From sequence record NC_050154.1: 64,000 nt of DNA. One strand, given 5' to 3'. A program made the translations under genes and the position numbers. Shown here piece after piece: positions 1 to 64,000 of this stretch (position 1 is the first letter of the stretch; each line of letters starts with the position of its first letter). Source of the DNA: Escherichia phage D6. The notes below the pieces were generated by a model. That model saw only the letters and a list, made by a program, of their open reading frames with translations, did no database searches and was not told the DNA's origin.

Positions 1-98
1 CAATTATTTAAAGTTATAAAATGCCGATTTTTTTTAATCCATCATAGATTGATGATGACCAGTAACACGTTGCCTTCATGGTCTTTAATTAGCGAAGT

Positions 99-226: not shown

Positions 227-1264
227 ATGAGTAAGAAGTCGATCGAGAAAGAGTACAAACGGTTCCTGCAAACCGCTGAACGGTGGAAAGAGCTGGTGGT
301 CGCAAACTCTGTTTTCCATGATACCAGTTATGCTGGCGAGGAATTCCGCCATGTTGCATTAACGCATGACCAAAACATATTAGAAGAAGCTGAAAAATGT
401 CTTGCTGAATGGAAAGCCTTCGTTGACATGTGCCGCGATGCCGACGGCAAAGCGTCGAACATTGTTGAGTCTGTATATTCTCCGATCCCATTCATCATTG
501 AGGACACCAATCAAAGCACGCATGTCGTTGTGCAAAGCGCTACAACAACACGTACATTTACACGTGAACAATTGCTAAAAAAATACGACAAAATCATAAA
601 GAAAAGCCTGAAAAATAGGGTTTTTTCTCAAATCGTAGGTGCTCTTGAAGAAGAACAGCGCTTCTTTGAAGCTGAGCCTGAAGGCGAGATCTACCGGGCG
701 CGTAAAGAGGCATATACAGATGTTGTGCTGACAACAAACATCGAAGGCAGCAATGCCCTTTCTCGCTTTAGAGTTGGCGCACATGGCGCATTGGTTTTCG
801 CAAGACTACCGAAGACAACGATCCCCGTTGTCAATAATGTTGGTGAACGCCGGAGCATTACAATTTATTCTGGCGTCGAATCGGTACCTTGCAGCCTTCT
901 CGGCGATTTTAACTTATATCGTGTTCGTGACCTGGAAAAACACCAGCCAAGCTACGTTGCGAAGTCGTACATCTTAAGGAACATCGATATTCGCAATGAA
1001 AGCCTTAAGCAGAAATCCGCTAAGATGCTGGAGGATGCCGATCCGGCTATTCGCCATATCATTGAGCGTAAGATACGTACATCACGTGAAGCAATGGCAA
1101 GGCTGGATAAAATGGATCTGGAATTGTTAGACGTAATGATGGCCTCTGGAGACGACCTGACCGGCATTAAACTGAATGAAGCTCGTAAAAAATACGGCAA
1201 AGCAATCGAAGAACGTTACGGATACACATTCCCCCAAACGCAGTACGCCGCGAAGCTCTGGTAA
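227..1264 (+). CDS. Hypothetical 345-aa protein; candidate immunity repressor (c1-position analogue), function unproven
   Basis: ATG start; convergent with pacB as c1 is in P1; two operator-like motifs immediately upstream; no domain recognisable by eye. Confidence 0.4.
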   Translation: MSKKSIEKEYKRFLQTAERWKELVVANSVFHDTSYAGEEFRHVALTHDQNILEEAEKCLAEWKAFVDMCRDADGKASNIVESVYSPIPFIIEDTNQSTHVVVQSATTTRTFTREQLLKKYDKIIKKSLKNRVFSQIVGALEEEQRFFEAEPEGEIYRARKEAYTDVVLTTNIEGSNALSRFRVGAHGALVFARLPKTTIPVVNNVGERRSITIYSGVESVPCSLLGDFNLYRVRDLEKHQPSYVAKSYILRNIDIRNESLKQKSAKMLEDADPAIRHIIERKIRTSREAMARLDKMDLELLDVMMASGDDLTGIKLNEARKKYGKAIEERYGYTFPQTQYAAKLW

Positions 1265-1291: not shown

Positions 1292-2800
1292 TTATATATC
1301 CAGATCCGGCATTTCGATATCCGCCAGAACCTGATCTCGGAAAGTTGCCATTTCGGCACCAATATCTTCATTAGCAGGCACATAGTCCACCAGCATAGTG
1401 AAGCAGTAGGTATCCCATCGGTCAGGCGATTTGATGTTTAGCTTTTGCCGCATGTGCTCTTTGCGCATCATCGCCATTTTCCCTTCTTCATTCAGTAAAA
1501 AGGGGATTTTTGACGCTTGCTCTGCCGTTTTAGGGTCACTGTCTATCCGCATACGCCCTGACTTTATGGCATCACGCGCCATAATATTTGCGTAGGCACG
1601 CTGATTAACAAATCGCTCCCTGTCTTTGTTCGCAAACATGGGTTTTCCCCACCGAATACGTACCGGGTTCGCACCACGACGCACCAACTGCGCACACGTA
1701 TCAGAACCAAAACCATCAGCATCAACCGCGATTGTTATATTCGGGTATTTTTCCGGCGTACATTCGTTATATATGAAGTCAGCAAAGGCCAATGGGTCCA
1801 TAGTGCCAGACATCTCCATTACCTTAAAGTTAACAACGCGCCGCTTATCCCTGTGACCTGATACCTTGCAGATGTTGAGGACCGACTTATCTCGCCCATT
1901 ACCAACGTCAGCCGTTGCCACCCATCCCCAGTTTTTCTCCAACAACACCTTGCGGCGAGCAGCGCGATCGCATTCATCACGACCAAGCAAATAGCCGTTA
2001 ATTTCTCGTGGGAACTGACCAAGCACCTTGACCATGTACTCAATAGAATCGCGCCCGCCATATTCCAGAAGCTTCTGCTTGATGAATTGTGGTGTGACGA
2101 ACGGTGATTCTTCCGAGTTAAGAACAATTGCTGTCCAGATCCCTTTCGGGTTGTCTGGGGTTTTTGCTTGAGAATGGTGCGAATCGTAGAAATAACCACT
2201 TGGCCTTGTTGGCTGGGATAGCATCAACATCCGGTTATCTTCTTCAGTAAGAGCACCGGTCATTACGCCGATCGCCTTATCAGATATACCAGATGCTTCA
2301 TCCAGAATTAGAAGCAAATGTGCCGCGTGTTCCCCCGCCAGCGCTTCTTCGTTGCCGAGTCGATAACCTTTGCAGAGAACTTCCCAAATCCCCTTACGGG
2401 AGCGCTCATAAAACATGGTGTCAGAGAGGACAAAATAGGTCTGCAACCACCCATGACGCTTAACTGCATTCGCCCAATACTGTTTAACGTATTTGAATAC
2501 GCCTGTTTTTACCTGGCCTATCTTGTTAGCAACAATGATGACACGGGCATCGGGGAACAGGATCATGAAAATCAACAGCAACATCGCGGTAAGGGACGAC
2601 TTCCCCGTTCCGTGTCCGGACGTGACGGTCGTCCTACTCCCCGTTTCCTGCACGGACTGAATGATCTGCTGCTGCTGGTGGGAGGGGAACATCCCAAAAA
2701 TATCGACAACAGCTTGGGTAAAGTTGTAGCGGTATTTGATTACCATATCGCGCCAGCGTGGATCGCTGGTGACGCATTTAATCTTGCGCCCTCCAGCCAT
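1292..2800 (-). CDS. pacB: Terminase large subunit (PacB-like)
   Basis: 502 aa; Walker A GHGTGKS; start ATG overlaps the upstream gene stop (TAATG); P1 PacB-like size. Confidence 0.85.
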   Translation of the reverse strand: MAGGRKIKCVTSDPRWRDMVIKYRYNFTQAVVDIFGMFPSHQQQQIIQSVQETGSRTTVTSGHGTGKSSLTAMLLLIFMILFPDARVIIVANKIGQVKTGVFKYVKQYWANAVKRHGWLQTYFVLSDTMFYERSRKGIWEVLCKGYRLGNEEALAGEHAAHLLLILDEASGISDKAIGVMTGALTEEDNRMLMLSQPTRPSGYFYDSHHSQAKTPDNPKGIWTAIVLNSEESPFVTPQFIKQKLLEYGGRDSIEYMVKVLGQFPREINGYLLGRDECDRAARRKVLLEKNWGWVATADVGNGRDKSVLNICKVSGHRDKRRVVNFKVMEMSGTMDPLAFADFIYNECTPEKYPNITIAVDADGFGSDTCAQLVRRGANPVRIRWGKPMFANKDRERFVNQRAYANIMARDAIKSGRMRIDSDPKTAEQASKIPFLLNEEGKMAMMRKEHMRQKLNIKSPDRWDTYCFTMLVDYVPANEDIGAEMATFRDQVLADIEMPDLDI

Positions 2801-4164
2801 TAATCATCCTCCGGCGGTTCTATCGCGATATCATCATCTCCGGCGTCATACCCTGCATCAGATGCATCATAATCACCGTAAATATCAGCCGTTGCCGAAG
2901 GGTCAATATCCAGCTCTTCGTCGTTGGCCTCGAATTCTCCAGCTTTACGCTCGCCATTGCGGTCGTAATCTCCGCACCCCAATTCTTCAACAATGGTTGC
3001 CACATCCGCCCGGCGCTCTGCCAGCCATTGCGGATGGTTAGCCTGAAGCGTCGCAAACTCCCTCGCCTCTTTGTCCAGCTGTTCATCATCAACATCATTG
3101 ACGTCAGAAACAGGTGGTTCGAGAAGAGTGATAGCTTTCGCCGCGCGCGCCGCGAGGATAGCCGGGACGCTGACCCCCTGGCGCTCGATGTATTCAGCAA
3201 CACCGATATCATCCAGTTCCTCGCGCTCACGCATACGTATAGCGGCGGCGATAACTCTGGCAGCGCGTGCGTCAGCGCCAATGCGATATTCAATCTCTTT
3301 GCCACGCTGTTCGGCCTGTAGGCGTGCTAATTCGAGTTTTTCTCTGGCCTCAGCCTCTTTGAATGCTTGCTGGCGAGCGCTCTGACGAAGCTTTTCATCC
3401 CCCTGTCGCAGCTTTTGTTCGGACTGATATATAGCTGCCAACCTACTGATAAAATCATTCATGTAGTAGGCCGCGTCACTGATTAGACCGAGAAGGCGCT
3501 GCCCAGGGTGCATTCCTTCTGGCTCTTTATCGCCCAAGGCGTCTATTTCCGCCTGTAGACGTTCGGCCTCCTGATCAACAATGCTTTGATACTGAAGTGC
3601 GCGCTCTTGCGCCATTTGAATTGCTAACCGCAGGTGTTCTTCTGCGCCGTTCTTCATCATATCGCGAGCCACATTCGTAGTGGGCAATGTGGCACGCTGC
3701 ACAGCACCGCCAGGGATCATTGCTGAAGATCCCTCAATTTTTGGGGCGCTTTTATCTTCTTCGGGGATCATTTTCGCCATTTTTTCGCGCAATGATCTCC
3801 TGACAGATTCTTTTATCTCATTGTTATTATTGGTATTACTTTCATGATCCGAAGTTTTCTTTCTTGGCATACTTCGGAAAGAACCTGCACCCTGCGAATT
3901 GTCAATTTCTGTAAATTTTGTTTTTTCTGCACCCTCTTCCAGCTTTTTTGTTGCTCTTCCCGCCCGTTTTTTTTCAGGTGATTTGGTGCTTTTTTTTGTT
4001 GTCTTTACCTGCGACCGCACCTCATTTTTTTTCATATTGAGATGCTTTCTGGCTGTATTGAAGCTAAGGCCATGCTCCTCACAGTATTCCTTTACAGTGA
4101 TCCCTTTTTCTTCACGCAACGCTATAAAGCGGGCGCGGTGCTCCTCCCAATTAACCAGACTCAT
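2800..4164 (-). CDS. pacA: Terminase small / pac-recognition subunit (PacA-like)
   Basis: 454 aa; N-terminal HTH-like segment (KEYCEEHGLSFNTARKHL); acidic C-terminus; translationally coupled to pacB. Confidence 0.55.
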   Translation of the reverse strand: MSLVNWEEHRARFIALREEKGITVKEYCEEHGLSFNTARKHLNMKKNEVRSQVKTTKKSTKSPEKKRAGRATKKLEEGAEKTKFTEIDNSQGAGSFRSMPRKKTSDHESNTNNNNEIKESVRRSLREKMAKMIPEEDKSAPKIEGSSAMIPGGAVQRATLPTTNVARDMMKNGAEEHLRLAIQMAQERALQYQSIVDQEAERLQAEIDALGDKEPEGMHPGQRLLGLISDAAYYMNDFISRLAAIYQSEQKLRQGDEKLRQSARQQAFKEAEAREKLELARLQAEQRGKEIEYRIGADARAARVIAAAIRMREREELDDIGVAEYIERQGVSVPAILAARAAKAITLLEPPVSDVNDVDDEQLDKEAREFATLQANHPQWLAERRADVATIVEELGCGDYDRNGERKAGEFEANDEELDIDPSATADIYGDYDASDAGYDAGDDDIAIEPPEDD

Positions 4165-4553
4165 AAAGCAACACCACGCTTTTTAACGGCGGCATTCCAC
4201 AGCTTATTCGCCATGTCCACCAGCTCTCGTTGCTCTTTTCGCGCCTGTTCGACTGATTTCCTGCTACAGTTTTTAACCAGTAAGCTACCGTATTCAGGCG
4301 TGCGCCCGCGCACCTTGAACTGATATCCGTTCAGACCATGTAGCCAGTATTTTCGTGGATACACACGATCATCCAGCTCACAGATTGCCCTGCTTGAACG
4401 AACAAAATGACGAATGATGTTAGTTACACTTACTCGTGAAACATGGAGATGAGGGTATTTTTCTTTGGCGAGAGTGGTAATTTCAGTGACTGTCAGATAG
4501 CAGTCAGCCCTGATCATGATATCCGCAATTTCTGCGCTGCTGATTTGTTCCAT
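4161..4553 (-). CDS. Hypothetical protein in the late-promoter-activator position (Lpa-like?)
   Basis: 130 aa; overlaps pacA start (ATGA); operator-like motif 77 bp upstream, as for C1-controlled lpa in P1. Confidence 0.3.
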   Translation of the reverse strand: MEQISSAEIADIMIRADCYLTVTEITTLAKEKYPHLHVSRVSVTNIIRHFVRSSRAICELDDRVYPRKYWLHGLNGYQFKVRGRTPEYGSLLVKNCSRKSVEQARKEQRELVDMANKLWNAAVKKRGVAL

Positions 4554-4629
4554 TAATCCCCCGGGCAGGAAATGACCGAGGGGATGATAATGAGAATGTT
4601 AAAACTGTATAGACTGGTAAAAAGATGAT

Positions 4630-4661: not shown

Positions 4662-5054
4662 CTACCAGCGAGACAAACGAACAACATGTTTCACTTTTGC
4701 GATCCACTTTCCGCGATAACTATTGATTACGGCCTGTGCCAGCTTCAAATTGGCTTCAAAATCAGCCTTACTACCATCAGACTCCACCAGCATTCCTCCA
4801 TCTATTTCTGGTAAACATAGATAATCCTGCTCAACCTGCAGCGGCATTGATGGCTCTCTGAATGGCGTTACTTGCTCTGCTTTCCAGCGAAATCTAACCC
4901 TCATCCCCCTGGTGGTCATTACTAGATAGCCTGTTATAGTGCTTTTATGGCCCACATCAGTACGCGTGGCATTGCATGACACGATCTTACAGTTAGCGAT
5001 AGACCACTCCATATTGGTGGCCTGTTGAGTGCTTAATTTGGTAGTCCCGTACAT
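4662..5054 (-). CDS. Hypothetical protein
   Basis: 130-aa ORF; overlaps the upstream gene by start/stop coupling. Confidence 0.35.
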   Translation of the reverse strand: MYGTTKLSTQQATNMEWSIANCKIVSCNATRTDVGHKSTITGYLVMTTRGMRVRFRWKAEQVTPFREPSMPLQVEQDYLCLPEIDGGMLVESDGSKADFEANLKLAQAVINSYRGKWIAKVKHVVRLSRW

Positions 5055-5629
5055 CAGAAAGCCTCCCAGTCAGTCGCGATAATATCCACACCAGTTGCAA
5101 ACCAGTCTGTCTGCGCCTGTAAATCACCATTCATCATTACCAGGCGAGGCATCACCATCACATCGCACCCTTCCACAATATCGAATGCCTCTTCCGGCAA
5201 GAATTCGAAGAGCTTTTCTTTGCTGCCAATGCTGCCACGGAACATCGATATATAGCTCCCTTTAGGCCATGATGTCCGCCGGGCATCAAGCCCTTTCATC
5301 ATCCAGTAAAAAGCCGAGGAAAAAGGGATATTCTTTTTGCCAATGATTACATTATTCGCTTCTGTGTACTTCAGGAACTTAACTAACCTTACCATTGACT
5401 CGGATAACGCAACGTATGGCTCATGATTGATTGCTGACACGCTTACACCGTGCAATCCAACGCTTACCACTGTCATATCGCCGCTCTGTGCGGTTTCGAT
5501 ATTGACGCCTTTGCGAACTAATGAGGCGTAAAGTTCCTCTCGCTTTTGGGTCCAGCGTTCACGCTTCCCTATGAAGTCACTCAAAATGAGATCTTCTTCT
5601 GCATATGCGTTATCGTTCGCCATTAACAT
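5054..5629 (-). CDS. Hypothetical protein
   Basis: 191-aa ORF with ATG start; no recognisable motif. Confidence 0.35.
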   Translation of the reverse strand: MLMANDNAYAEEDLILSDFIGKRERWTQKREELYASLVRKGVNIETAQSGDMTVVSVGLHGVSVSAINHEPYVALSESMVRLVKFLKYTEANNVIIGKKNIPFSSAFYWMMKGLDARRTSWPKGSYISMFRGSIGSKEKLFEFLPEEAFDIVEGCDVMVMPRLVMMNGDLQAQTDWFATGVDIIATDWEAF

Positions 5630-20693: not shown

Positions 20694-20917
20694 CAGTGTG
20701 CCTCCGCAATTCCGGGATTGGTAATATTGCGATACCAGGGATTAGTGTTTGGTTGTGGGGAAGTAGAGAAACGACCAGTAAGAACACCATACTGATCAGG
20801 GATCAGAGAACGGGCTTCTTTTTCGGTTGCGGCAATTGCGAAGTGATCGCAGTGTTTTTGCAGGGAGTGGAAACGCCAGATGAATTCTGGGCGTGAGCAA
20901 GGATTGGCATTAACCAT
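20693..20917 (-). CDS. Icd-like small protein (position and size analogue)
   Basis: 74 aa (P1 Icd is ~73 aa, from memory); start codon lies 11 nt downstream of an antisense-target element; coupled to the ant-like gene (ATGA overlap). Confidence 0.35.
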   Translation of the reverse strand: MVNANPCSRPEFIWRFHSLQKHCDHFAIAATEKEARSLIPDQYGVLTGRFSTSPQPNTNPWYRNITNPGIAEAH

Positions 20918-21330: not shown

Positions 21331-22293
21331 TCATCCCCTAAATCCCGCAGGGATTGACCAATCCTCACGGTCAAATTCAGACCGATAGCCACGCTGTTTC
21401 ATCAGGTCAAAGGCTTCACCAATGGTTGCACACCCCTGGGAGCCAGAATAATCCATTGAGAAATCCAGGGCACTGGATTGTTTAGGCTTATTCACTGCGG
21501 TAGCGGCACTACGTATCCATGCAAATTTTTTTGCCAGCTTTTCAGCGGTACGATACAGAGCCTGCCGTTTTGCGTGCCCCTCGTCTGAACGACGCTTTGC
21601 AGCTCTCGCTTTTGCCGCCGCCAGGCAGTGGTTGGTATGTTCTTCCCTGATTACTGGTTTTTTATCCAGTACCACGTTATCCGTTTGAGAACTATCTGCT
21701 GGTGAAGCCTTTGGCTGAACCGCGCATGATCTTTCTCTTCTTTTGGCTATAGAGTGACTCTTATTTTCTATTGGCTGTTCATTTTGAACATGGGGGGACT
21801 TGTTCAATTTGAACAGGGGGTTCCCAGTTTCAAAAAAATAACGAACCTTTGAAATCAACTGCTTAACCAGTTTTGTGGCGTTGGCAAATTTGATGCCCTG
21901 CTTACCCCCTATCTCCATTGCTACATGAATGAAGTGGAGAAATTGTGTCGTAAACCGATATACGTTACACACCTGGGCATTGTTATTCGCTACCTGATGT
22001 TGCTTAACAAGCATTCCGCACTTCGTCGCTTCAGTAAATGCCCGGCGCACAGTAGAAATACTGCGCCCTGTAATCTCAGACATATCAGCATATGAGCGAC
22101 GGATCATGTATTCATCGGTAGCCCCTGCAAGGTTGGCGAACTCGGCAATAATGGCGCTATGTGAAGGGGAAAGAAGACCGCTATGACGAGCAAAAAAACT
22201 CAACTGATGACCTTTGATTTTTTTGTGGTATTCAGTGTTGTTTTTATACTCAGAAGTGTTGAAAGTTACTGAAACTGAATTTAAAATATTCAC
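21331..22293 (-). CDS. HTH-containing hypothetical protein (possible replication or regulatory protein)
   Basis: 320 aa; HTH-like MSEITGRSISTVRRAFTEATKCGML; basic C-terminal half. Confidence 0.3.
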   Translation of the reverse strand: MNILNSVSVTFNTSEYKNNTEYHKKIKGHQLSFFARHSGLLSPSHSAIIAEFANLAGATDEYMIRRSYADMSEITGRSISTVRRAFTEATKCGMLVKQHQVANNNAQVCNVYRFTTQFLHFIHVAMEIGGKQGIKFANATKLVKQLISKVRYFFETGNPLFKLNKSPHVQNEQPIENKSHSIAKRRERSCAVQPKASPADSSQTDNVVLDKKPVIREEHTNHCLAAAKARAAKRRSDEGHAKRQALYRTAEKLAKKFAWIRSAATAVNKPKQSSALDFSMDYSGSQGCATIGEAFDLMKQRGYRSEFDREDWSIPAGFRG

Positions 22294-22388: not shown

Positions 22389-22493
22389 GGCAATCGCTAC
22401 CGGAGCAGTGACCGCGATCCTACTCGATCACATCGGACAGGATCAACAGTGTATATAAATACACTATGTTAGCAATTTAATTTCATACAGCGG

Positions 22494-23492
22494 TTATGCC
22501 CGTCGCGAAACGAAGAGTAATGGGGTAGTATTTTTGCTCTCCTTCGGCGATAACTCCGGCTCTTTCTTGCCTGATATCGGCAAGCCATAAGTCGCATTTG
22601 CCCCCATAGATTCAAGCATCGCAGCCACTATGCGAGCATCATCTTCAGACTGCATACGGCAGAGCGCCCGACGCTGTTCTGCGCTGATAAAAACAGGCAT
22701 TTCCTGGATAGCGTCACGCAAAATCCGGCGGCATTGCTTTGCATTTTCCCCCTGGCTTTCCATCATCGCTGTTTGAGCGCGCAGCTTATCTCGAAGCTGT
22801 ATGTTTTCCACTTCAAGGAGCATCAATTCTGATTCCAGGGCTTCACGATGTGCAGATTCGAGCATGGCTTGCTGATTTTTCATTGCTGAAAAGTGGTGAA
22901 CCAGATCCGTAGCAGCGTTATCGGTAAAACCTTGTTCGATAAGTGCTGCATGAATAGCCGCATCGCGCTCTTCTGCTGATTCAAGCATCAGGCTTTTCTT
23001 GTCGAGGCTGATATAGTTAGGCACAGTTACGTAATCAAAGCCGTGGAAAGACTTTACCAGGGATACCGATGAATCTGGACCAGATGTAGCCCACGACCAA
23101 CCACCAGCACCAGAATTAATCATGCCCTGAACAATACGCCCGGTGTCTGTATCCAGTATTTCCTGCGTATGAGTAACAATGCCGTTGTCGTCAATCGAAA
23201 TGTCGATAGTCCTGTTTGACGGCACGTTCTCCAATACAACAGGCTTCCCATCTACCATCACAACAGAGACTTCCGGCAAGTTCAGGCTTTTCGTTTTGTT
23301 ATAGTGCATCGCCCGGCGACCATGACCGTAATAACCATACATCTCACCCAGCGCGATACGCTCTTTTGTTTCTGGCGAGTTGAATGTGTCTCGTACCGAC
23401 TGAATGACGTAATTTCGGTTGTTCTGCGGTGTGTGTTTGCGGATTTTCTCTACCAGGGAGAAGCGATCCGTAACAGTATTCAGTGATTGCAT
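22494..23492 (-). CDS. Prohead protease/scaffold-like protein (Pro-like)
   Basis: 332 aa directly downstream of the portal-sized gene; GYYGHG motif; C-terminal coiled-coil-like region. Confidence 0.45.
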   Translation of the reverse strand: MQSLNTVTDRFSLVEKIRKHTPQNNRNYVIQSVRDTFNSPETKERIALGEMYGYYGHGRRAMHYNKTKSLNLPEVSVVMVDGKPVVLENVPSNRTIDISIDDNGIVTHTQEILDTDTGRIVQGMINSGAGGWSWATSGPDSSVSLVKSFHGFDYVTVPNYISLDKKSLMLESAEERDAAIHAALIEQGFTDNAATDLVHHFSAMKNQQAMLESAHREALESELMLLEVENIQLRDKLRAQTAMMESQGENAKQCRRILRDAIQEMPVFISAEQRRALCRMQSEDDARIVAAMLESMGANATYGLPISGKKEPELSPKESKNTTPLLFVSRRA

Positions 23493-40833: not shown

Positions 40834-43800
40834 TTAATCCTCAAGCAGAGCATCCAGCGACGGGTCATTAATAGTTGTGCTAGCACGTGGTCGCGGTTGC
40901 GGCTGCGATGTTTTGACAACCTTATCCGGATCGCCTTTTGTATTGTTCTTGTTCACATTCAGAAGATCGTTCAGGATAGAGCAGATGTTATCCAGCGCCT
41001 TCAACATAGCAGGATCGTTATTTATAGTGTCAGTAGTTAATGGTTGTCTTATTCCGCTTCGTGCGAGATCTGTTACAGTAGGAAGCTGTGGTGGCATAGC
41101 AAGAAAAGGTTCTTGCACGGCTGACGCAGAGCCAAATATGGCATTATTGGCTTCGTTTGATATACCTCTAATGCTATCTGCGGTTTGTTGAATACCATTA
41201 TTCAGCCAACTACCGGCGCTCCTGGTAAGCGGGCTAATAGCCCTAGCAATTGTTGAGTTCTGCCCAGTAGCCTGATAAACCAAATCATTAACAATGCCAG
41301 TGCCATCTACCCCACCAATAAGTCGTGAAACGTTATCGCCAATTGCAGGTAACACAGCAGAGCTAATACGTTTCAGACCTGTTAATGACGAGTCAAACAA
41401 AGAGCCAAGCACCCCCTTATCTTCACCATCAATTACCTTGTATCCATTGTCATAAACTGGAATCCCCCTTGAGTTTACAGGGATTTTTTCACTCTCACTT
41501 GCCGAAGAAACACCGGAAAGAAGATCCACTGAAGGCATATCGCGTTCAGCTTTTGGTCTTTTTTGTAAAGCGTCTCTTATATCAGTTACCTGGCTTGCTT
41601 TTTGAAATCCAAAAGATTTACCGGTTAAGCTGGATATCTTTTCAGTAAGAGCCTGATCCATTCCTTTCGCTTTTTCGGAAAGCGAAGATATAGAACCAAA
41701 CGAAGTCGCCGACGCAAAATCCTTAATCAGGCCAAGGCTTGTACCAGCAAGGCTGGTAGCCGCACCTCCAAATAAATTACCTACCCCGCTGTCATTTATA
41801 GCGATTAATCTCTCAAGCAGACTTGATGGAGAGCCAGTATTAACATCAACGTTCTCTGGATTAATCGGTTGCGATTGATTGCCTGTTTTTTGTGGCTTTT
41901 TGACTGCCTGGGCATATTGTGCAACCTCAATTGGCTGTTGTGTTGCTGTCGGAACGGCATTCAAAACTGGTTGAGCTGGAGATTTTCCATTAACATATTT
42001 TATCTTGCGACCAACACTATATTGCGAATCGCGGGCAATTAGCTGACCACCATTTTCTTTCTGAATTTTATTAATCCGCGCCAATGTTTCGTCAGAGAAT
42101 TGTCCCTCCCATCGACCAGTATTTGTGTTAAATGCCCCAAGAGCATTCTTTATGAACTCATTGTTAACCGCCGGGTTTCCACCTTCTTTCGTCGCTATTG
42201 CACGAACTAATTGCGTCATAACCTCTGGGTTGCTGACGTCTATTTTTTCATTAGGCGAGACGCCAAGATATTTGCTGACGTTATCAATATATTGATTAGT
42301 ATTGTTCTCCTTTGGGGGTGCCCATTTGGAAATAATACTGGATACCGTCTGTAGCTTCTGATACCCAGCAGCGGCGCTGGTGCCGTTGTAATAGCTTGAC
42401 ACCTGGTTTGCCAGCGCCCTGATCCCTTCTTCAGGCGTGTTAAATCGCGCAAAACGTTGTTCACCTTTTGCATTTGGTGCTTCCAGCGTCGCCCCTTCCT
42501 GATTAGCGAAAACAAGGTTGCCGAGATTATTATTCCGGTAATTGCGGTTTTTGGCGTTGCTGCCACCAATATTCAGATCCGCTGCAATGGTGTTGCTGGT
42601 AGGGGCATTAAATTCAGCCGGGGAAGTATACCCGTGCTCACCAACACCATCTTCACCATCACGCCCGCCTTGTAGCTGCTCACCTAAAGAATGAATCGCA
42701 TCGACAGTTTTTTTGGTGCCGTCTTCAACAGCTTTTTTTACTTGTTTTGTGTTTTCGTCAGTGGATAAAAATGTATCCTTAAGGCTACCAAAAACAGATT
42801 TTGTGATATCTACCGCGCCGTTAACACCACGAGCAATATCTCCGGTATCAAAATTCTGAAGTTTTTCACCTGCTCTTTCAAATCCTAGCGCAGAAATTCC
42901 TTTCCCTATCAAGTTTGTTGCGCCCGACACCAAGCCCCCCATATCGAGCACATTAGCTGTTGCGTAAGCCGTTTTTTGCTGTTCGGATACAGCATCATCG
43001 TCACTTAAACCAAAGGCTGCCTTTTGCGCCTCTGTATCTGTGTAACCATCTATGGCGTCATATCCAGCCATTGCCAGCGAACCGATGATAGGGACCGCTC
43101 TTGCCGCAGTGGATGCTGCTGATTTAACTCCTATTTTTGCAGCACTTTTGAGGGCTACAGATTCAGTTTTTTTCTTTGCAATGGCTTCGCCGGTTTTAAT
43201 GGTGGCATCTTCAGCCACAACACCAGCTGACTTCACGGCCTTAGCAGTATTTTTTGTTTCCTTTGCAATCCCCTTTGATGTATCGCTGATAGTGCTTACA
43301 TCTTTGGGTTTGCTGATCTCATTTTTAACTACTTTTGCTGCTCCGACACCAGTGCCAGCTGCAGCGCTACCGGCAGCAACTTTTTCGCCAACGGAGAGTG
43401 CTTTTTTCCCAAGATTGCGGCCTTTCCTTTTCGATTTATTCCGTTTATTTTTTCCCGTTTGATCACCAATATTGATTTTATTTCTTCTGCTTGCTCGATT
43501 TTTCCAGAGATCACTTAAGCCGAACTTATTTCCAGAAGACACTGATTTCCGAAGCTTAACTATCTCGTCAGAAACATTTTCCAGACCATCAATTATTTTG
43601 TTGTCATTGGTCTGAAGGATTTTGGTTTGCTCTTCTACTGCTTGTGCGGATTTTGTCTCAACAGCGTTATTGAACGCTTTTGCAGATGTTGCTTTTTGAG
43701 AATTCACCGCCGCCGGATAAGTAATTACTGGTGATATCGCTTTCGAGGTTGATGTTTCTTTTTTCCCCTTTTCTACCCATTCTTTAAGAGATTCTGCTTT

Positions 43801-59924: not shown

Positions 59925-61586
59925 ATGAGTGAGGCAGAAGCCCGCCCGACTAACTTTATTCGTCAGATCATCGATGAAGATCTGGCCAGTGGTAAGCACA
60001 CCACAGTACATACCCGTTTCCCGCCGGAACCGAATGGCTATCTGCATATTGGTCATGCGAAATCTATCTGCCTGAACTTCGGGATCGCCCAGGACTATAA
60101 AGGCCAGTGCAACCTGCGTTTCGACGACACTAACCCGGTAAAAGAAGATATCGAGTACGTCGAGTCGATTAAAAACGACGTTGAATGGTTAGGTTTTCAC
60201 TGGTCTGGCAACATCCGTTACTCCTCCGATTATTTTGACAAACTCCATGCCTATGCTGTTGAACTGATCAACAAAGGCCTGGCGTATGTTGACGAACTGA
60301 CGCCGGAACAGATCCGCGAATACCGCGGCACCCTGACGCAGCCGGGTAAAAATAGCCCGTACCGCGATCGCAGCGTTGAAGAGAACCTGGCGCTGTTCGA
60401 AAAAATGCGTGCCGGTGGTTTTGAAGAAGGTAAAGCCTGCCTGCGTGCGAAAATCGATATGGCTTCGCCGTTTATCGTGATGCGCGACCCGGTGCTGTAC
60501 CGCATTAAGTTTGCTGAACACCACCAGACTGGCAACAAGTGGTGCATCTACCCGATGTACGACTTCACCCACTGCATCAGCGATGCGCTGGAAGGTATTA
60601 CGCACTCTCTGTGTACGCTTGAGTTCCAGGACAACCGTCGTCTGTATGACTGGGTACTGGACAACATCACCATTCCTGTTCACCCGCGCCAGTACGAATT
60701 CTCGCGCCTGAATCTGGAATACACTGTGATGTCCAAGCGTAAGCTGAACCTGCTGGTGACCGACAAGCACGTTGAAGGCTGGGATGACCCGCGTATGCCG
60801 ACCATTTCCGGTCTGCGTCGTCGTGGTTACACTGCTGCTTCTATTCGTGAGTTCTGCAAACGCATCGGCGTGACCAAGCAGGACAACACCATTGAGATGG
60901 CGTCGTTGGAATCCTGCATCCGTGAAGATCTCAACGAAAATGCGCCGCGCGCAATGGCGGTTATCGATCCGGTGAAACTGGTTATCGAAAACTATCAGGG
61001 CGAAGGCGAAATGGTCACCATGCCGAACCATCCGAACAAACCGGAAATGGGGAGCCGTCAGGTGCCGTTTAGCGGTGAGATTTGGATTGATCGCGCCGAT
61101 TTCCGCGAAGAAGCTAACAAGCAGTACAAACGTCTGGTGCTGGGTAAAGAAGTGCGTCTGCGTAATGCTTATGTGATTAAGGCAGAACGCGTCGAGAAAG
61201 ATGCCGAAGGTAATATCACCACCATCTTCTGTACTTATGACGCCGATACCTTAAGCAAAGATCCGGCAGATGGTCGTAAAGTCAAAGGTGTTATTCACTG
61301 GGTGAGCGCGGCACATGCGCAGCCGGTTGAAATCCGTTTGTATGACCGTCTGTTCAGCGTGCCGAACCCAGGTGCTGCGGATGATTTCCTGTCGGTGATT
61401 AACCCGGAATCGCTGGTGATCAAACAGGGCTTTGCTGAACCGTCGCTGAAAGATGCGGTTGCGGGTAAAGCATTCCAGTTTGAGCGTGAAGGTTACTTCT
61501 GCCTCGACAGCCGCCATTCTACGGCGGAAAAACCGGTATTTAACCGCACCGTTGGGCTGCGTGATACCTGGGCGAAGTTAGGTTAA
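59925..61586 (+). CDS. glnS: Glutaminyl-tRNA synthetase
   Basis: 553 aa; HIGH motif (HIGH at residues ~40-43), VMSKR motif; near-identical along its length to E. coli GlnS as I recall it. Confidence 0.95.
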
Positions 61587-61611: not shown

Positions 61612-61636
61612 AAACGCCGCTACTGCGGCGTTTTTT
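61612..61636. terminator. Bidirectional rho-independent terminator between glnS and dam
   Basis: aacgccgc-tact-gcggcg followed by TTTTTT; A-run upstream. Confidence 0.7.
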
Positions 61637-62540
61637 ACTTCATTATTGCAATTATATCGTTAGCAACTACACGTGTTGACGCCTTGCAGGACACCGACCG
61701 TCTGGCTGCCATATGATGTACTTTAAACCCGTTTCCTTCATATAGTTCACGGATGTTTGGCGCACCACTATTTGTTATCACTACCTTAGCGCCGCGCTGG
61801 TGGGCTTCCACCAATAGAGATACCAGCCGTTTCTGTTCGTCGAAACGGAAGCTATTTCCTGAATAACTGGTAAACCCTTCTGTATCCGGCAGCGGTTCAT
61901 ACGGCGGATCGCAAAAAATCACATCGCCTTCACCAGCCGCCTCGATGACGCCAGCAAAGTCACCTGATACAAAGGACGTGTTTTTGAGTACGTCATCAGC
62001 CAAAAATGCCTCCATCTCTGCATGTGGGAAGTAGGGCGCTTTGTATTTGCCATACCCCACGTTGAACTCGCCATTTTGGTTGTACCGCGTTACGCCATTA
62101 AAACAGTGCCGATTAAGGTACAAAAAGGCGGCAGCATGATGTAGCTGGTCATACTTTCCTCTGTTAAATGCCTCACGCACTTCGAGGTAAGCGTCAGCGT
62201 TGTTGTAATTTTGGAAAAAACTATATGACAGCGTGACGAGCGAATGTCCTTCTCGCTGCAATGTCTGATAGAAGTTAATCAGGTCACCGTTAATATCATT
62301 AAGCAGGTTGTGGCGAAATCCTGCATTCGTAAATACGGAACCGCCACCAACGAATGGTTCTATTAACCGCTTACCGTGTGGTAGATGCTCAAGCACTGTA
62401 GGCAATTCTGAGAATTTACCACCTACCCATTTGAATATCGGACGCTCATATTCATCCGGAGTCCGAATGGTGCGCATATAGCTAATTTCAGCCATCGTAT
62501 CCTGTTTTTCTATGGCTATGCTTGCTATAGATTTACTCAT
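61635..62540 (-). CDS. dam: Dam-family N6-adenine DNA methyltransferase
   Basis: KWVGGK, FLYLNR, EFNV and DPPY motifs aligned to E. coli Dam; ATG at 62540 overlaps the upstream gene stop (ATGAGTAA). Confidence 0.8.
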   Translation of the reverse strand: MSKSIASIAIEKQDTMAEISYMRTIRTPDEYERPIFKWVGGKFSELPTVLEHLPHGKRLIEPFVGGGSVFTNAGFRHNLLNDINGDLINFYQTLQREGHSLVTLSYSFFQNYNNADAYLEVREAFNRGKYDQLHHAAAFLYLNRHCFNGVTRYNQNGEFNVGYGKYKAPYFPHAEMEAFLADDVLKNTSFVSGDFAGVIEAAGEGDVIFCDPPYEPLPDTEGFTSYSGNSFRFDEQKRLVSLLVEAHQRGAKVVITNSGAPNIRELYEGNGFKVHHMAARRSVSCKASTRVVANDIIAIMK

Positions 62541-63213
62541 AGAGCACCCCCTTATTCGCTTCGAAAACTGCCTTTGCGAATCCATGTGGAGTAGCACTTC
62601 GAAAATTAGCCCTGTCAGGCCCTGGTGGCGCGGCATGGATTCTGTTATCTGGCTTGCCTAATGATTCGTCCATTAGGGCATCAGGCATGACAAAGCCCTG
62701 GCCGCTCCAGAGGCATGTTTTTTTGGTGTAGTTATCTTCCTGACAATATGCAGTGAAGAAGTAAGGGTGAAAGATGTGATCTGGCTTACGCCAGAATGTC
62801 GATATTTTGCTGACCGGATTTTCAATCATGTACGGACAACCGATCATCTTTGCAATGTCATAACACTGCCAGACAACCTGCATTGCTTTGAACTGGAAAA
62901 CCGGATCTTTATTAGCCTTGTCCGAAAACCAGCGCGCGCCGGAAACAGCCAGGTCAGTACACGGTGGGAACCCGGCCAGAAACACGATGCGCTGCAAATT
63001 CTTACGGAGAAAAGCGTATACTTCATCGCTATCGATGATCGCACTAATACGCGTCAGAACGGCACCTGATTGCATCCGCTCGTCACTGGTCGATAAGTGC
63101 TGTGGATCGACGATAGCGGCATCGACACCGTATTCCAGCCAGGGGGCAACCATTGCCCCCGTAAAATCACAAAGACTCACAACAAGCGGTCGGTTATTAT
63201 CGTTCTGCTTCAC
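62533..63213 (-). CDS. Compact C5-cytosine-methyltransferase-like protein (start uncertain)
   Basis: [12 protein letters not shown] (PC motif IV-like) and YMIENP (ENV motif VI-like); candidate GTG start at 63213 with GGAGG RBS; too short for a full C5-MTase with target-recognition domain. Confidence 0.4.
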
Positions 63214-64000
63214 CGCCAATGGCCTCCACCAGCGCGTTAAACAGTGCAGATAATTCGCCCGTAAAGAGCACGAAATCAGCATCAAATCGTTGTGCTACAT
63301 CCTCCCGGTCGATATCGTCGTTCTGGTCATAGAGATCATCACAGAATGTCAGGGCTTTGATACTCATATCATCGTTGACTCTGAACGACGCGCGGTCCAT
63401 CCAGTTAATTGCAACGGTCGTAGCTACTTTCCCCGCCTCAATGTGAGACATAATCTCGTCGGACTGTAGATCAACTTTGTTGCAGCGAACGGCACCACCA
63501 TTATCGAGCAGACCCTTTAATGTGGCGTCTTCACCTGCTGTAAATCCGGCAGGGAAGCCGTTTTTAAACCACTCGGTCATTGTAATTTCCAGCGGTTCGC
63601 GTGGTGTGAATGGAATGACAGGCAGGCTGCCGAGCGATTTTCGCAATAAAGCCAGCTGGTCCTCTGCCTTTTTGGCGCTGCTTGCCTCAACGAATACCAG
63701 ATGGTTTCTGCGGTCGATCAGGATTTTGGCGAGTGATTTTCTCGTGAAAGCACGAGGAAGAAGAGAGTGAAGCACTTCATCCTTCAGCGAATCTTTTTCG
63801 GTCTTCTTCAGCTTTCTGTCTTGCTCTTCTTCAAGTGTCAGGATTTTTTTCTGTAACTCTTCTTTGAGCACTTGAGAAGGTAGGATTTTTTCCTCTCGTT
63901 TATGCTGTATCAGAAGAAAACCCTGGTATTCATGGGTGAGGTTGTCACCAAGAACGGAGGTCCAACCAGCTTTAGCCATATCCTGAGAACCGCATGGGGT
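63197..64000 (-). CDS. rdgC: RdgC-like recombination-associated protein (5' end beyond window)
   Basis: EEKILPS ... [21 protein letters not shown] ... [20 protein letters not shown] matches E. coli RdgC over its C-terminal ~260 aa; P1 carries a homologue (hrdC) next to dmt. Confidence 0.85.

What the first reader, a model, noticed from the sequence alone, without database searches (positions are those of the whole stretch)
3715..3849. GATC cluster inside pacA: candidate pac site
Five GATC sites fall within 135 bp (3715, 3728, 3766, 3794, 3846), four of them in a TGATC context on one or other strand. P1 pac is a cluster of Dam-methylated TGATC(A/G) hexamers inside pacA. The position here, about 330-440 bp into pacA, is further in than I would expect, so this is tentative.
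Basis: partly seen in the sequence, partly recalled or inferred. Interest (0 to 1): 0.35.

Follow-up and report, generated by a model that had tools for sequence, protein, structure and literature searches.

The report
Phage D6 packaging-start site in pacA
The five clustered GATC sites inside the pacA gene of phage D6 are very probably the site where DNA packaging starts, the counterpart of the phage P1 pac site, but they use a different repeat sequence and a more compact layout.

Summary
The window is phage D6, or a near-identical plasmid prophage. pacA lies at 2800-4164 (-), and GATC occurs at 3715, 3728, 3766, 3794 and 3846.

Density alone is weak evidence: five GATC within 135 bp somewhere in 64 kb has P of about 0.2. 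Comparison with relatives is the real support.
- All five sites are kept in D6-like pacA genes down to about 66% nucleotide identity in this part of the gene, which is its most diverged part.
- Three sites are kept down to 41% protein identity.
- Every PacA lineage examined, P1 included, has 3-6 times excess GATC at nt 100-520 of pacA.

The repeat is not the P1 hexamer TGATCA/G. It is an oriented GGATCW (consensus GGGGATCATT) used in both directions. It occurs in all three reading frames, inside a linker predicted to be disordered, so selection acts on the DNA.

A site resembling the P1 IHF site lies between the first and second GATC. The D6 clade lacks the gene-proximal arm that sister lineages and P1 have. 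D6 carries its own Dam methylase. The site points towards rox, as P1 pac points towards lox.

Verdict: a probable Dam-controlled pac site, a variant of a known kind. Cleavage has not been shown.

The parts
3713..3850 (-). Candidate D6 pac site: five Dam (GATC) repeat units plus an IHF-like site, at pacA nt 315-452
3845..3850 (-). Unit 1, GGATCA on the coding strand (pacA nt 316). Specific to the D6 clade.
   Evidence: Unchanged in all 28 distinct D6-clade sequences. Absent in L008 and L090-L093.
3814..3826 (-). IHF-like site TAACAATGAGATA (pacA nt 339-351), between units 1 and 2
   Evidence: The pattern WAACAR-N4-WTR, taken from the annotated P1 IHF site AAACAAAGAGTTA, occurs exactly once per pacA gene and at the aligned position in the D6 clade, L008, L090, L091, L092, P1 and L068. 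About 0.1 per gene is expected by chance. The pattern was defined after seeing the data, so this is an inference.
3793..3798 (-). Unit 2, AGATCA on the coding strand (pacA nt 368). It reads GGATCA in the diverged relatives.
   Evidence: The column is conserved down to 41% protein identity. It forms an inverted repeat with unit 3: GGGGATCATT / AATGATCTCC. One near-identical variant, L017, has GACC here.
3765..3770 (+). Unit 3, GGATCA on the + strand (TGATCC on the coding strand, pacA nt 396). It starts 28 nt after unit 2.
   Evidence: The 27-28 nt spacing to unit 2 is kept in D6, L008 and L090-L093. GGGATCATT is a direct repeat with unit 5. Variant L041 has GACC here.
3727..3732 (-). Unit 4, GGATCT on the coding strand (pacA nt 434)
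   Evidence: Unchanged in the D6 clade, although the codon switches between GGA (Gly) and AGA (Arg).
3714..3719 (+). Unit 5, GGATCA on the + strand (TGATCC on the coding strand, pacA nt 447)
   Evidence: The column is conserved in all D6-type lineages except L047.
2800..4164 (-). pacA, small terminase subunit, 454 aa. The site lies in codons 106-150.
   Evidence: Annotated in AY753669. 20% identical to P1 PacA. The AlphaFold model gives aa 1-45 as a three-helix domain, aa 46-159 with pLDDT below 50 and no secondary structure, and aa 160-400 as long helices.
4030..4164 (-). Codons 1-45 of pacA: predicted helix-turn-helix domain and proposed reader of the repeat units
   Evidence: The third helix reads NTARK[HQRK] in all 10 D6-type sequences and NTARR[EY] in all 6 P1-type sequences. 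This split coincides with a single split in the tree.
1292..2800 (-). pacB, large terminase subunit
   Evidence: 56% identical to P1 PacB. Weak Terminase_6N match.
61635..62636 (-). Phage-borne Dam-family N6-adenine DNA methyltransferase
   Evidence: PF02086, E = 2.7e-56. E. coli Dam structure 2G1P, E = 2e-58.
1..16 (.). Right half of the rox recombination site. The window starts at the centre of rox.
   Evidence: pacA is transcribed towards rox, about 3.7 kb away. This matches the geometry of P1 pac and loxP.

Best explanation
Window 3713-3850 is the packaging-initiation (pac) site of phage D6, or its recognition core. It is built on the same principle as P1 pac. Short repeats containing GATC are embedded in the part of pacA that encodes a disordered linker. 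The N-terminal helix-turn-helix domain of PacA reads them. Dam methylation, from the host and from the phage's own Dam, controls them. An IHF-like bend site lies among them. PacA and PacB then cut nearby, and headful packaging runs towards pacB, c1 and rox.

What is shown here:
- where the sites are;
- that selection on them acts at the DNA level;
- the family-wide pattern of GATC clusters;
- the repeat consensus;
- that a Dam gene is present;
- the gene order and orientation.

What is inferred from P1:
- PacA binding;
- dependence on methylation;
- IHF binding;
- the cut position, guessed at about 3797-3845, between unit 1 and unit 2;
- the direction of packaging.

D6 differs from P1 in two ways. 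The repeat unit is the oriented GGATCW (consensus GGGGATCATT), used in both directions, not TGATCA/G. The layout is 1 + IHF-like + 4 units in 135 bp, without the separate gene-proximal arm.
For: 1. Conservation against a diverged background. Among 28 distinct D6-clade sequences, 18 of 20 GATC columns never change, against 102 of 310 other columns in pacA nt 151-480 (Fisher P = 5e-7). This stretch is only 55-68% identical between subclades. GATC sites elsewhere in pacA (589, 634, 681, 1032, 1147, 1180) are specific to single lineages.

2. Units 2, 3 and 5 occupy the same alignment columns down to 41% protein identity.

3. Selection acts on the DNA, not the protein.
- The same motif occurs in all three reading frames.
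- Arg/Gly swaps keep the GATC core.
- Every codon difference lies outside the four-base core, while background synonymous identity is about 0.5.
- The Lys codon in front of GATCC is always AAG.
- The region is predicted to be disordered.

4. All 14 representative PacA lineages have 5-9 GATC at nt 101-520, against 1-2 expected. P1 is among them, and there the cluster coincides with the annotated IHF and cleavage sites.

5. An IHF-like site sits at a conserved position and has the same form as the P1 site.

6. D6 carries its own Dam gene.

7. The gene order lpa-pacA-pacB-c1-rox and the roughly 3.7 kb distance to rox mirror P1.

8. P1 pac biology as described in PMC10028697.
Against: - No virion DNA ends or cleavage data exist for D6 in anything I could read.
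- Density alone is not significant across the window.
- None of the five sites is the P1 hexamer.
- There is no second arm, whereas P1 needs both arms (my own knowledge of Sternberg and Coulby 1987).
- No IHF consensus with one mismatch or fewer lies inside the cluster. The IHF-like pattern was defined after seeing the data.
- Two near-identical natural variants each lack one site, so single sites can be lost, at least in prophages whose viability is unknown.
- The match between the PacA helix and the repeat type amounts to one evolutionary event.
Confidence: 0.75

Rival explanations
1. The cluster is a different Dam- or SeqA-dependent element that happens to lie in pacA, for example one that times pacA/pacB expression or senses replication. 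The real cut site would be elsewhere.
For: Only GATC conservation and the Dam gene are shown directly. The site lacks the second arm and the P1 hexamer.
Against: P1 has its mapped cleavage and IHF sites inside the equivalent cluster. No promoter-like site is found in or near the cluster on either strand. The flanking bases of the repeat are conserved beyond GATC (G at -1 in 49 of 53 sites). That points to a sequence-specific reader rather than SeqA or Dam alone.
Confidence: 0.12
2. The conservation reflects short peptide motifs in PacA (Asp-His, Gly-Ser, Met-Ile-Pro), and the GATC sites are a by-product.
For: Ile-Pro is conserved at units 3 and 5, and Ile133 never changes in the protein alignment.
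Against: The same DNA motif sits in three different reading frames and so encodes different peptides. Amino acids change (Arg/Gly) while GATC stays. Synonymous positions inside the core never vary. The segment is predicted to be disordered.
Confidence: 0.05
3. It is a chance cluster with no function.
For: The window-wide scan gives P of about 0.2, and overall GATC is not enriched.
Against: The sites are conserved position by position across lineages, and the same enrichment recurs in all 14 lineages.
Confidence: 0.03

Closest known systems
Bacteriophage P1 pac site (161-162 bp inside pacA; Sternberg and Coulby 1987, 1988; Skorupski et al. 1994, as summarised in PMC10028697)
   Same: Both lie in the 5' third of pacA, between lpa and pacB. 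Both are built from repeats containing GATC (Dam sites). Both have an IHF-type site among the repeats. Both phages encode an adenine methylase. Both sites sit about 4 kb from the lox/rox recombination site and point towards it.
   Different: The P1 unit is TGATCA/G, mostly palindromic; the D6 unit is the oriented GGATCW in both directions. P1 has 4 + 3 units, 7-15 bp apart, around a 96-bp spacer. D6 has 1 + 4 units, 13-52 bp apart, with no separate proximal arm. The PacA proteins are only 20% identical. Cleavage and methylation control have been demonstrated for P1 but not for D6.
Two-armed GATC clusters in pacA of D6-type sister lineages (Enterobacter, Klebsiella and Raoultella plasmid prophages: L008, L043, L090-L093, L047). 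As far as I could find these are undescribed.
   Same: They use the same GGGATCATT-type unit. The distal module is the same: one unit, 27-28 nt (start to start), an inverted unit, then a further inverted unit. The IHF-like site sits at the same aligned position.
   Different: They carry an extra proximal arm at nt 160-240 (GGGATCWTT once or twice, plus AAGATCCC in most, though not in L008). That arm falls in an alignment gap in the D6 clade. The D6 clade has unit 1 instead.
pac sites inside the small-terminase genes of other headful phages (P22 gene 3, SPP1 gene 1, Sf6). From my own knowledge.
   Same: The recognition site is embedded in the gene for the small terminase that reads it, and packaging is by headful.
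   Different: Those sites are not built from Dam sites and are not known to be controlled by methylation.

Membership tests
P1-type pac site | Lies within the 5' third of pacA, in the gene order lpa-pacA-pacB-c1-lox | tested here: met
   pacA nt 316-450 of 1365. The order lpa, pacA, pacB, c1, rox is seen. P1 has its sites at nt 195-376.
P1-type pac site | Cluster of Dam (GATC) sites | tested here: met
   Five sites in 135 bp, conserved. Enrichment is seen in every PacA lineage.
P1-type pac site | Repeat unit is the hexamer TGATCA/G | tested here: not met
   There are no TGATC[AG] sites between 3700 and 3860. The units read GGATCA, AGATCA, TGATCC, GGATCT and TGATCC.
P1-type pac site | Two arms (4 + 3 hexamers) flanking a central spacer that holds the cut site | tested here: not met
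   The D6 clade has no proximal arm. Its layout is 1 + 4 around a 48-bp AT-rich spacer.
P1-type pac site | IHF binding site between the arms | tested here: inconclusive
   No match to WATCAANNNNTTR with one mismatch or fewer lies in the cluster. TAACAATGAGATA at 3814-3826 has the form of the annotated P1 site and its position is conserved.
P1-type pac site | Cut by PacA and PacB at the site, with headful packaging starting there | not testable with these tools
   This needs mapping of virion DNA ends or a cleavage assay.
P1-type pac site | Cleavage depends on adenine methylation of the repeats | not testable with these tools
   Only the components are shown: GATC cores and a phage Dam gene.
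D6-type pac site (a grouping proposed here) | Oriented GGATCW units (consensus GGGGATCATT) in both directions, including a pair of inverted units whose GATC cores start 27-28 nt apart | tested here: met
D6-type pac site (a grouping proposed here) | PacA third helix reads NTARK[HQRK] | tested here: met
   D6 has NTARKH. The pattern holds in 10 of 10 D6-type sequences, against 0 of 6 P1-type. It coincides with one split in the tree.

The most novel reading that the evidence does not exclude
The D6 clade runs a working pac site that has lost one of the two arms thought essential in P1. The site is compacted to a single unit, an IHF-like bend site and four units within 135 bp. The switch from TGATCR to GGATCW recognition is set by one or two residues (Lys/Arg and its neighbour) in the third helix of the PacA N-terminal domain. 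If so, packaging specificity in P1-family vectors could be reprogrammed by swapping a few residues and a short DNA cassette.
Probability: 0.3. Interest if true: 0.5.

Novelty: new variant of a known kind. Interest (0 to 1): 0.4.

Why it matters
D6-like phage-plasmids are common in Escherichia, Salmonella and Shigella: 121 PLSDB plasmids carry this pacA. D6 is also the source of the Dre/rox recombinase tool. A defined pac site would allow D6-based phagemids or transducing vectors that do not cross-package with P1. It would also help predict which host DNA such phages transduce. The comparison gives a natural series of pac layouts, from 0 + 5 to 7 + 2 units, and two repeat dialects. That series could be used to test how a small terminase reads a methylation-gated site. 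The idea that D6 has a pac site in pacA is itself expected. The value lies in the details.

Tried and rejected
**Literature**
- The three papers most likely to discuss D6 or P1 pac are not held: Sauer and McDermott 2004, Gilcrease and Casjens 2018, and Lobocka et al. 2004.
- Searches of the held library found nothing on a D6 pac site.
- I therefore cannot rule out that the site has already been described. The D6 GenBank record annotates no pac feature, but neither does the same authors' P7 record.

**Density test**
- It is not significant across the window, so I dropped it as primary evidence.

**Homologue searches**
- tblastn of D6 PacA against the phage collection found only D6 itself. P1 had to be reached through PacB.
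- The scan of species-representative genomes returned only three P1-like loci.

**Other features checked**
- The strict IHF consensus has no match in the cluster. The exact match at 3579-3591 lies 124 bp beyond the cluster's end. Relatives keep the protein there but not the consensus or the adjacent GATC, so I did not treat it as part of the site.
- The promoter scan found nothing in the cluster. One weak terminator-like hairpin at 3732-3746 lies on the antisense strand and I judged it to be chance.
- The A-tracts upstream (3916-4032) are about 23-35 bp apart by reading the sequence, so they are not in phase with the helix. I did not pursue them as a bend element.
- The split between PacA helix and repeat type is perfect (16 of 16), but it maps to a single split in the tree, so I count it only as a lead.

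**Not possible**
I ran it on D6-type sequences only.

Full report
**What the locus is**

Window 2700-4600 is 100% identical to the immC region of Escherichia phage D6 (AY753669). That record annotates:
- lpa at 4161-4553 (-);
- pacA at 2800-4164 (-), 454 aa;
- pacB at 1292-2800 (-);
- c1 at 227-1264 (+).

The window starts at the centre of the rox site: window 1-16 is the right half of rox. No pac feature is annotated in the D6 record. PacB is 56% identical to P1 PacB. PacA is only 20% identical to P1 PacA and matches no Pfam family.

**The observation**

GATC occurs at 3715, 3728, 3766, 3794 and 3846. These are pacA nt 447, 434, 396, 368 and 316. Four of the five are TGATC on one strand or the other. 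This is the tightest 4-site and 5-site cluster in the window.

Density alone is weak evidence:
- The window as a whole is not enriched for GATC (232 found, 240 expected).
- Five sites within 135 bp somewhere in 64 kb has P = 0.24 with uniform placement, and arises in 57 of 300 third-order Markov simulations.
- For one pre-chosen 135-bp stretch, P = 1.6e-4.

**Conservation**

PLSDB holds 121 plasmids with this pacA, spanning 100% down to about 67% nucleotide identity. IMG/VR added 75 loci.

All five GATC sites sit at identical positions in D6-clade genes, including those only 66-69% identical over the first 600 nt. The stretch nt 280-480 is the most diverged part of the gene, at 55-68% identity. 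Among 28 distinct sequences, 18 of 20 GATC columns never change, against 102 of 310 other columns in nt 151-480 (Fisher P = 5e-7; the sequences are related, so this is indicative only). The two exceptions are single T-to-C changes in two near-identical variants, L017 and L041.

GATC sites elsewhere in pacA (589, 634, 681, 1032, 1147, 1180) are specific to single lineages. Only the one at nt 63, in the well-conserved 5' end of the gene, is shared.

**Selection acts on the DNA, not the protein**

- Every codon difference between D6 and the diverged subclades at the ten codons touching a GATC falls outside the four-base core. Examples are CAT/CAC, AGA/GGA, GGA/AGA and TCT/TCA.
- Two of those differences change the amino acid (Arg/Gly) and still keep GATC.
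- Background identity of synonymous codons is about 0.5.
- Across D6-type lineages the same DNA motif lies in all three reading frames and so encodes different peptides.
- The Lys codon before GATCC is always AAG, in an A-rich setting.
- An AlphaFold model built from 19 D6-type sequences gives residues 1-45 as a three-helix domain (pLDDT 74-86), residues 46-159 with pLDDT below 50 and no secondary structure, and residues 160-400 as long helices. The cluster, codons 106-150, lies in the predicted linker.

**The family-wide pattern**

All 14 representative PacA lineages have 5-9 GATC at nt 101-520 of pacA, against 1-2 expected from their flanks. Each P value lies between 2e-2 and 6e-5.

In P1 these sites are the known HEX4 and HEX3 groups (GATC at nt 195-229 and 325-348, with a further GATC at 376). 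They flank the annotated IHF site (nt 256-268) and the cleavage sites (nt 275-285). PMC10028697 summarises the P1 biology:
- a 161-bp site inside pacA with seven TGATCA/G repeats that carry Dam sites;
- an IHF site between the two groups of repeats;
- a proposed sequence in which pacase binds the hemimethylated site and cuts after further methylation;
- about a nine-fold drop in phage titre after synonymous recoding of the repeats.

**The repeat unit differs from P1**

P1-type lineages (P1, L068, L014, L062/L065, L049) use TGATCA/G almost exclusively. D6-type lineages (the D6 clade, L008, L090-L093, L047) use GGATCW in both orientations. The oriented consensus of 53 D6-type sites is GGGGATCATT, with G at -1 in 49 of 53. 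By comparison, 29% of other GATC sites in the window read GGATCW on one strand or the other.

The D6 cluster contains no TGATC[AG] at all.

On the coding strand the five D6 units point forward, forward, reverse, forward, reverse. GGGATCATT is an exact direct repeat at 3713 and 3764, and is inverted at 3791-3800.

**The architecture differs from P1 and from sister lineages**

In a codon-aware alignment, units 2, 3 and 5 occupy the same columns in all D6-type lineages except L047, down to 41% protein identity. The second and third units start 27-28 nt apart in all of them. The sister lineages also carry a proximal arm at nt 160-240: GGGATCWTT once or twice, plus AAGATCCC in L090-L093. That arm falls in an alignment gap in the D6 clade. 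The D6 clade has unit 1 instead. It also has unit 4, which has an approximate counterpart in L008.

Unit counts (proximal + distal arm) range widely:

| Lineage | Units |
|---|---|
| L049 group | 6-7 + 2 |
| P1 | 4 + 3 (+1) |
| L008 | 3 + 5 |
| D6 clade | 0 + 5 |

If unit 1 is counted as a minimal left arm, the D6 clade is 1 + 4. The D6 cluster corresponds to the distal arm only.

**An IHF-like site**

The strict consensus WATCAANNNNTTR, allowing one mismatch, has no match in the cluster. The annotated P1 site itself deviates from that consensus: it reads AAACAAAGAGTTA. The pattern WAACAR-N4-WTR occurs exactly once in pacA of the D6 clade (TAACAATGAGATA, nt 339-351, window 3814-3826), and once each in L008, L090, L091, L092, P1 and L068. 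It is always on the coding strand. In D6-type genes it is always at the same aligned position, 16 nt before unit 2. About 0.1 occurrences per gene are expected by chance. I defined the pattern after seeing the data, so this is a lead and not a test.

**Supporting context**

D6 encodes a Dam-family methyltransferase at 61635-62636 (-). It matches PF02086 at 2.7e-56 and the E. coli Dam structure at 2e-58. pacA is transcribed towards rox, about 3.7 kb away. In P1, pac lies about 4 kb from loxP.

**The proposed reader**

The third helix of the PacA N-terminal domain reads NTARK[HQRK] in all 10 D6-type sequences and NTARR[EY] in all 6 P1-type sequences. A neighbour-joining tree places the two types on either side of a single split. 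The correlation could therefore reflect one event, and I treat it only as a hypothesis about specificity.

**Mechanism proposed**

The sequence of events below is inferred from P1, except where stated.
1. Late in infection, Lpa-dependent expression supplies PacA and PacB.
2. PacA binds the GGGATCATT units through its N-terminal domain.
3. Binding or cutting depends on Dam methylation, which limits cutting to fully methylated copies.
4. IHF or an intrinsic bend at 3814-3826 folds unit 1 towards units 2-5.
5. The complex cuts nearby. By analogy with P1, where the cut is 7-17 nt past the IHF site, this would be around 3797-3807. That figure is a guess.
6. The end on the pacB side is threaded into the prohead, so rox is packaged early and can lie in the terminal redundancy, where Dre could circularise the DNA.

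**Rival explanations**

I considered three rivals: another Dam- or SeqA-dependent element, a peptide-motif constraint, and chance. They are given above with their evidence. The comparative data leave them about 0.2 in total.

**Limits**

- No packaging ends, binding data or methylation data were available.
- The key D6 and P1 papers could not be read, so an earlier description of this site cannot be excluded.
- The lineages sampled are few and related.

Noticed in passing
window 59925-61586 (+): A full-length class I Glu/Gln-type aminoacyl-tRNA synthetase (553 aa). It matches PF00749 at 6e-130 and has both anticodon-binding domains. It is encoded on this phage-plasmid next to the Dam gene and an RdgC homologue (63197-63979, -). 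This is unusual cargo for a P1-like element.
   Followed up: no
window 22416-22444: Three GATC sites within 29 bp, the tightest triplet in the window. They lie in the gap between two ORFs that have no Pfam match (21331-22293 and 22494-23492, both -). This could be a Dam-sensitive origin or regulatory site.
   Followed up: partly
window 20794-20848 and 40929-41070: Two further GATC groups: three sites in 55 bp, including TGATCAGGGATCAG, and four sites in 142 bp. Their function was not examined.
   Followed up: no
window 3572-3591 (pacA nt 574-593): An exact IHF consensus, TATCAAAGCATTG, lies next to a P1-type TGATCA hexamer, 124 bp beyond the cluster's end. The consensus and the GATC are present only in the 92% or more identical D6 group. 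It is probably a coincidence of the coding sequence.
   Followed up: partly
L046 (end) and L035 (start), IMG genome 2537562191: Two contigs of one draft assembly break inside pacA at nt 320-329, with a 10-nt overlap. The break lies immediately after unit 1 and before the IHF-like site. It may be an assembly accident, but the position is striking.
   Followed up: partly
window 3895-3918 (pacA nt 247-270): A DNA island, AAATTTACAGAAATTGACAA, is conserved in the D6-type lineages other than L047, between the two arms of the sister lineages. The four-fold degenerate codon ACA and the codon GAC are identical in those ten sequences. It encodes Phe/Leu-Thr-Lys-x-Asp. Whether the constraint is on DNA or protein is undecided.
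   Followed up: partly
window 5054-5629 (-): An ORF with a Tad2-like (Thoeris anti-defence 2) domain, PF11195 at 1e-9, lies upstream of lpa. The same gene sits beside lpa in relative L093.
   Followed up: no
window 3916-4032 (pacA nt 133-249): Four runs of six to eight A (AAA Lys codons) and a shorter run of four lie in the linker-coding region, including three A8 runs. Such runs are prone to slippage. This may be why several database entries annotate a shortened PacA of 323-326 aa.
   Followed up: no
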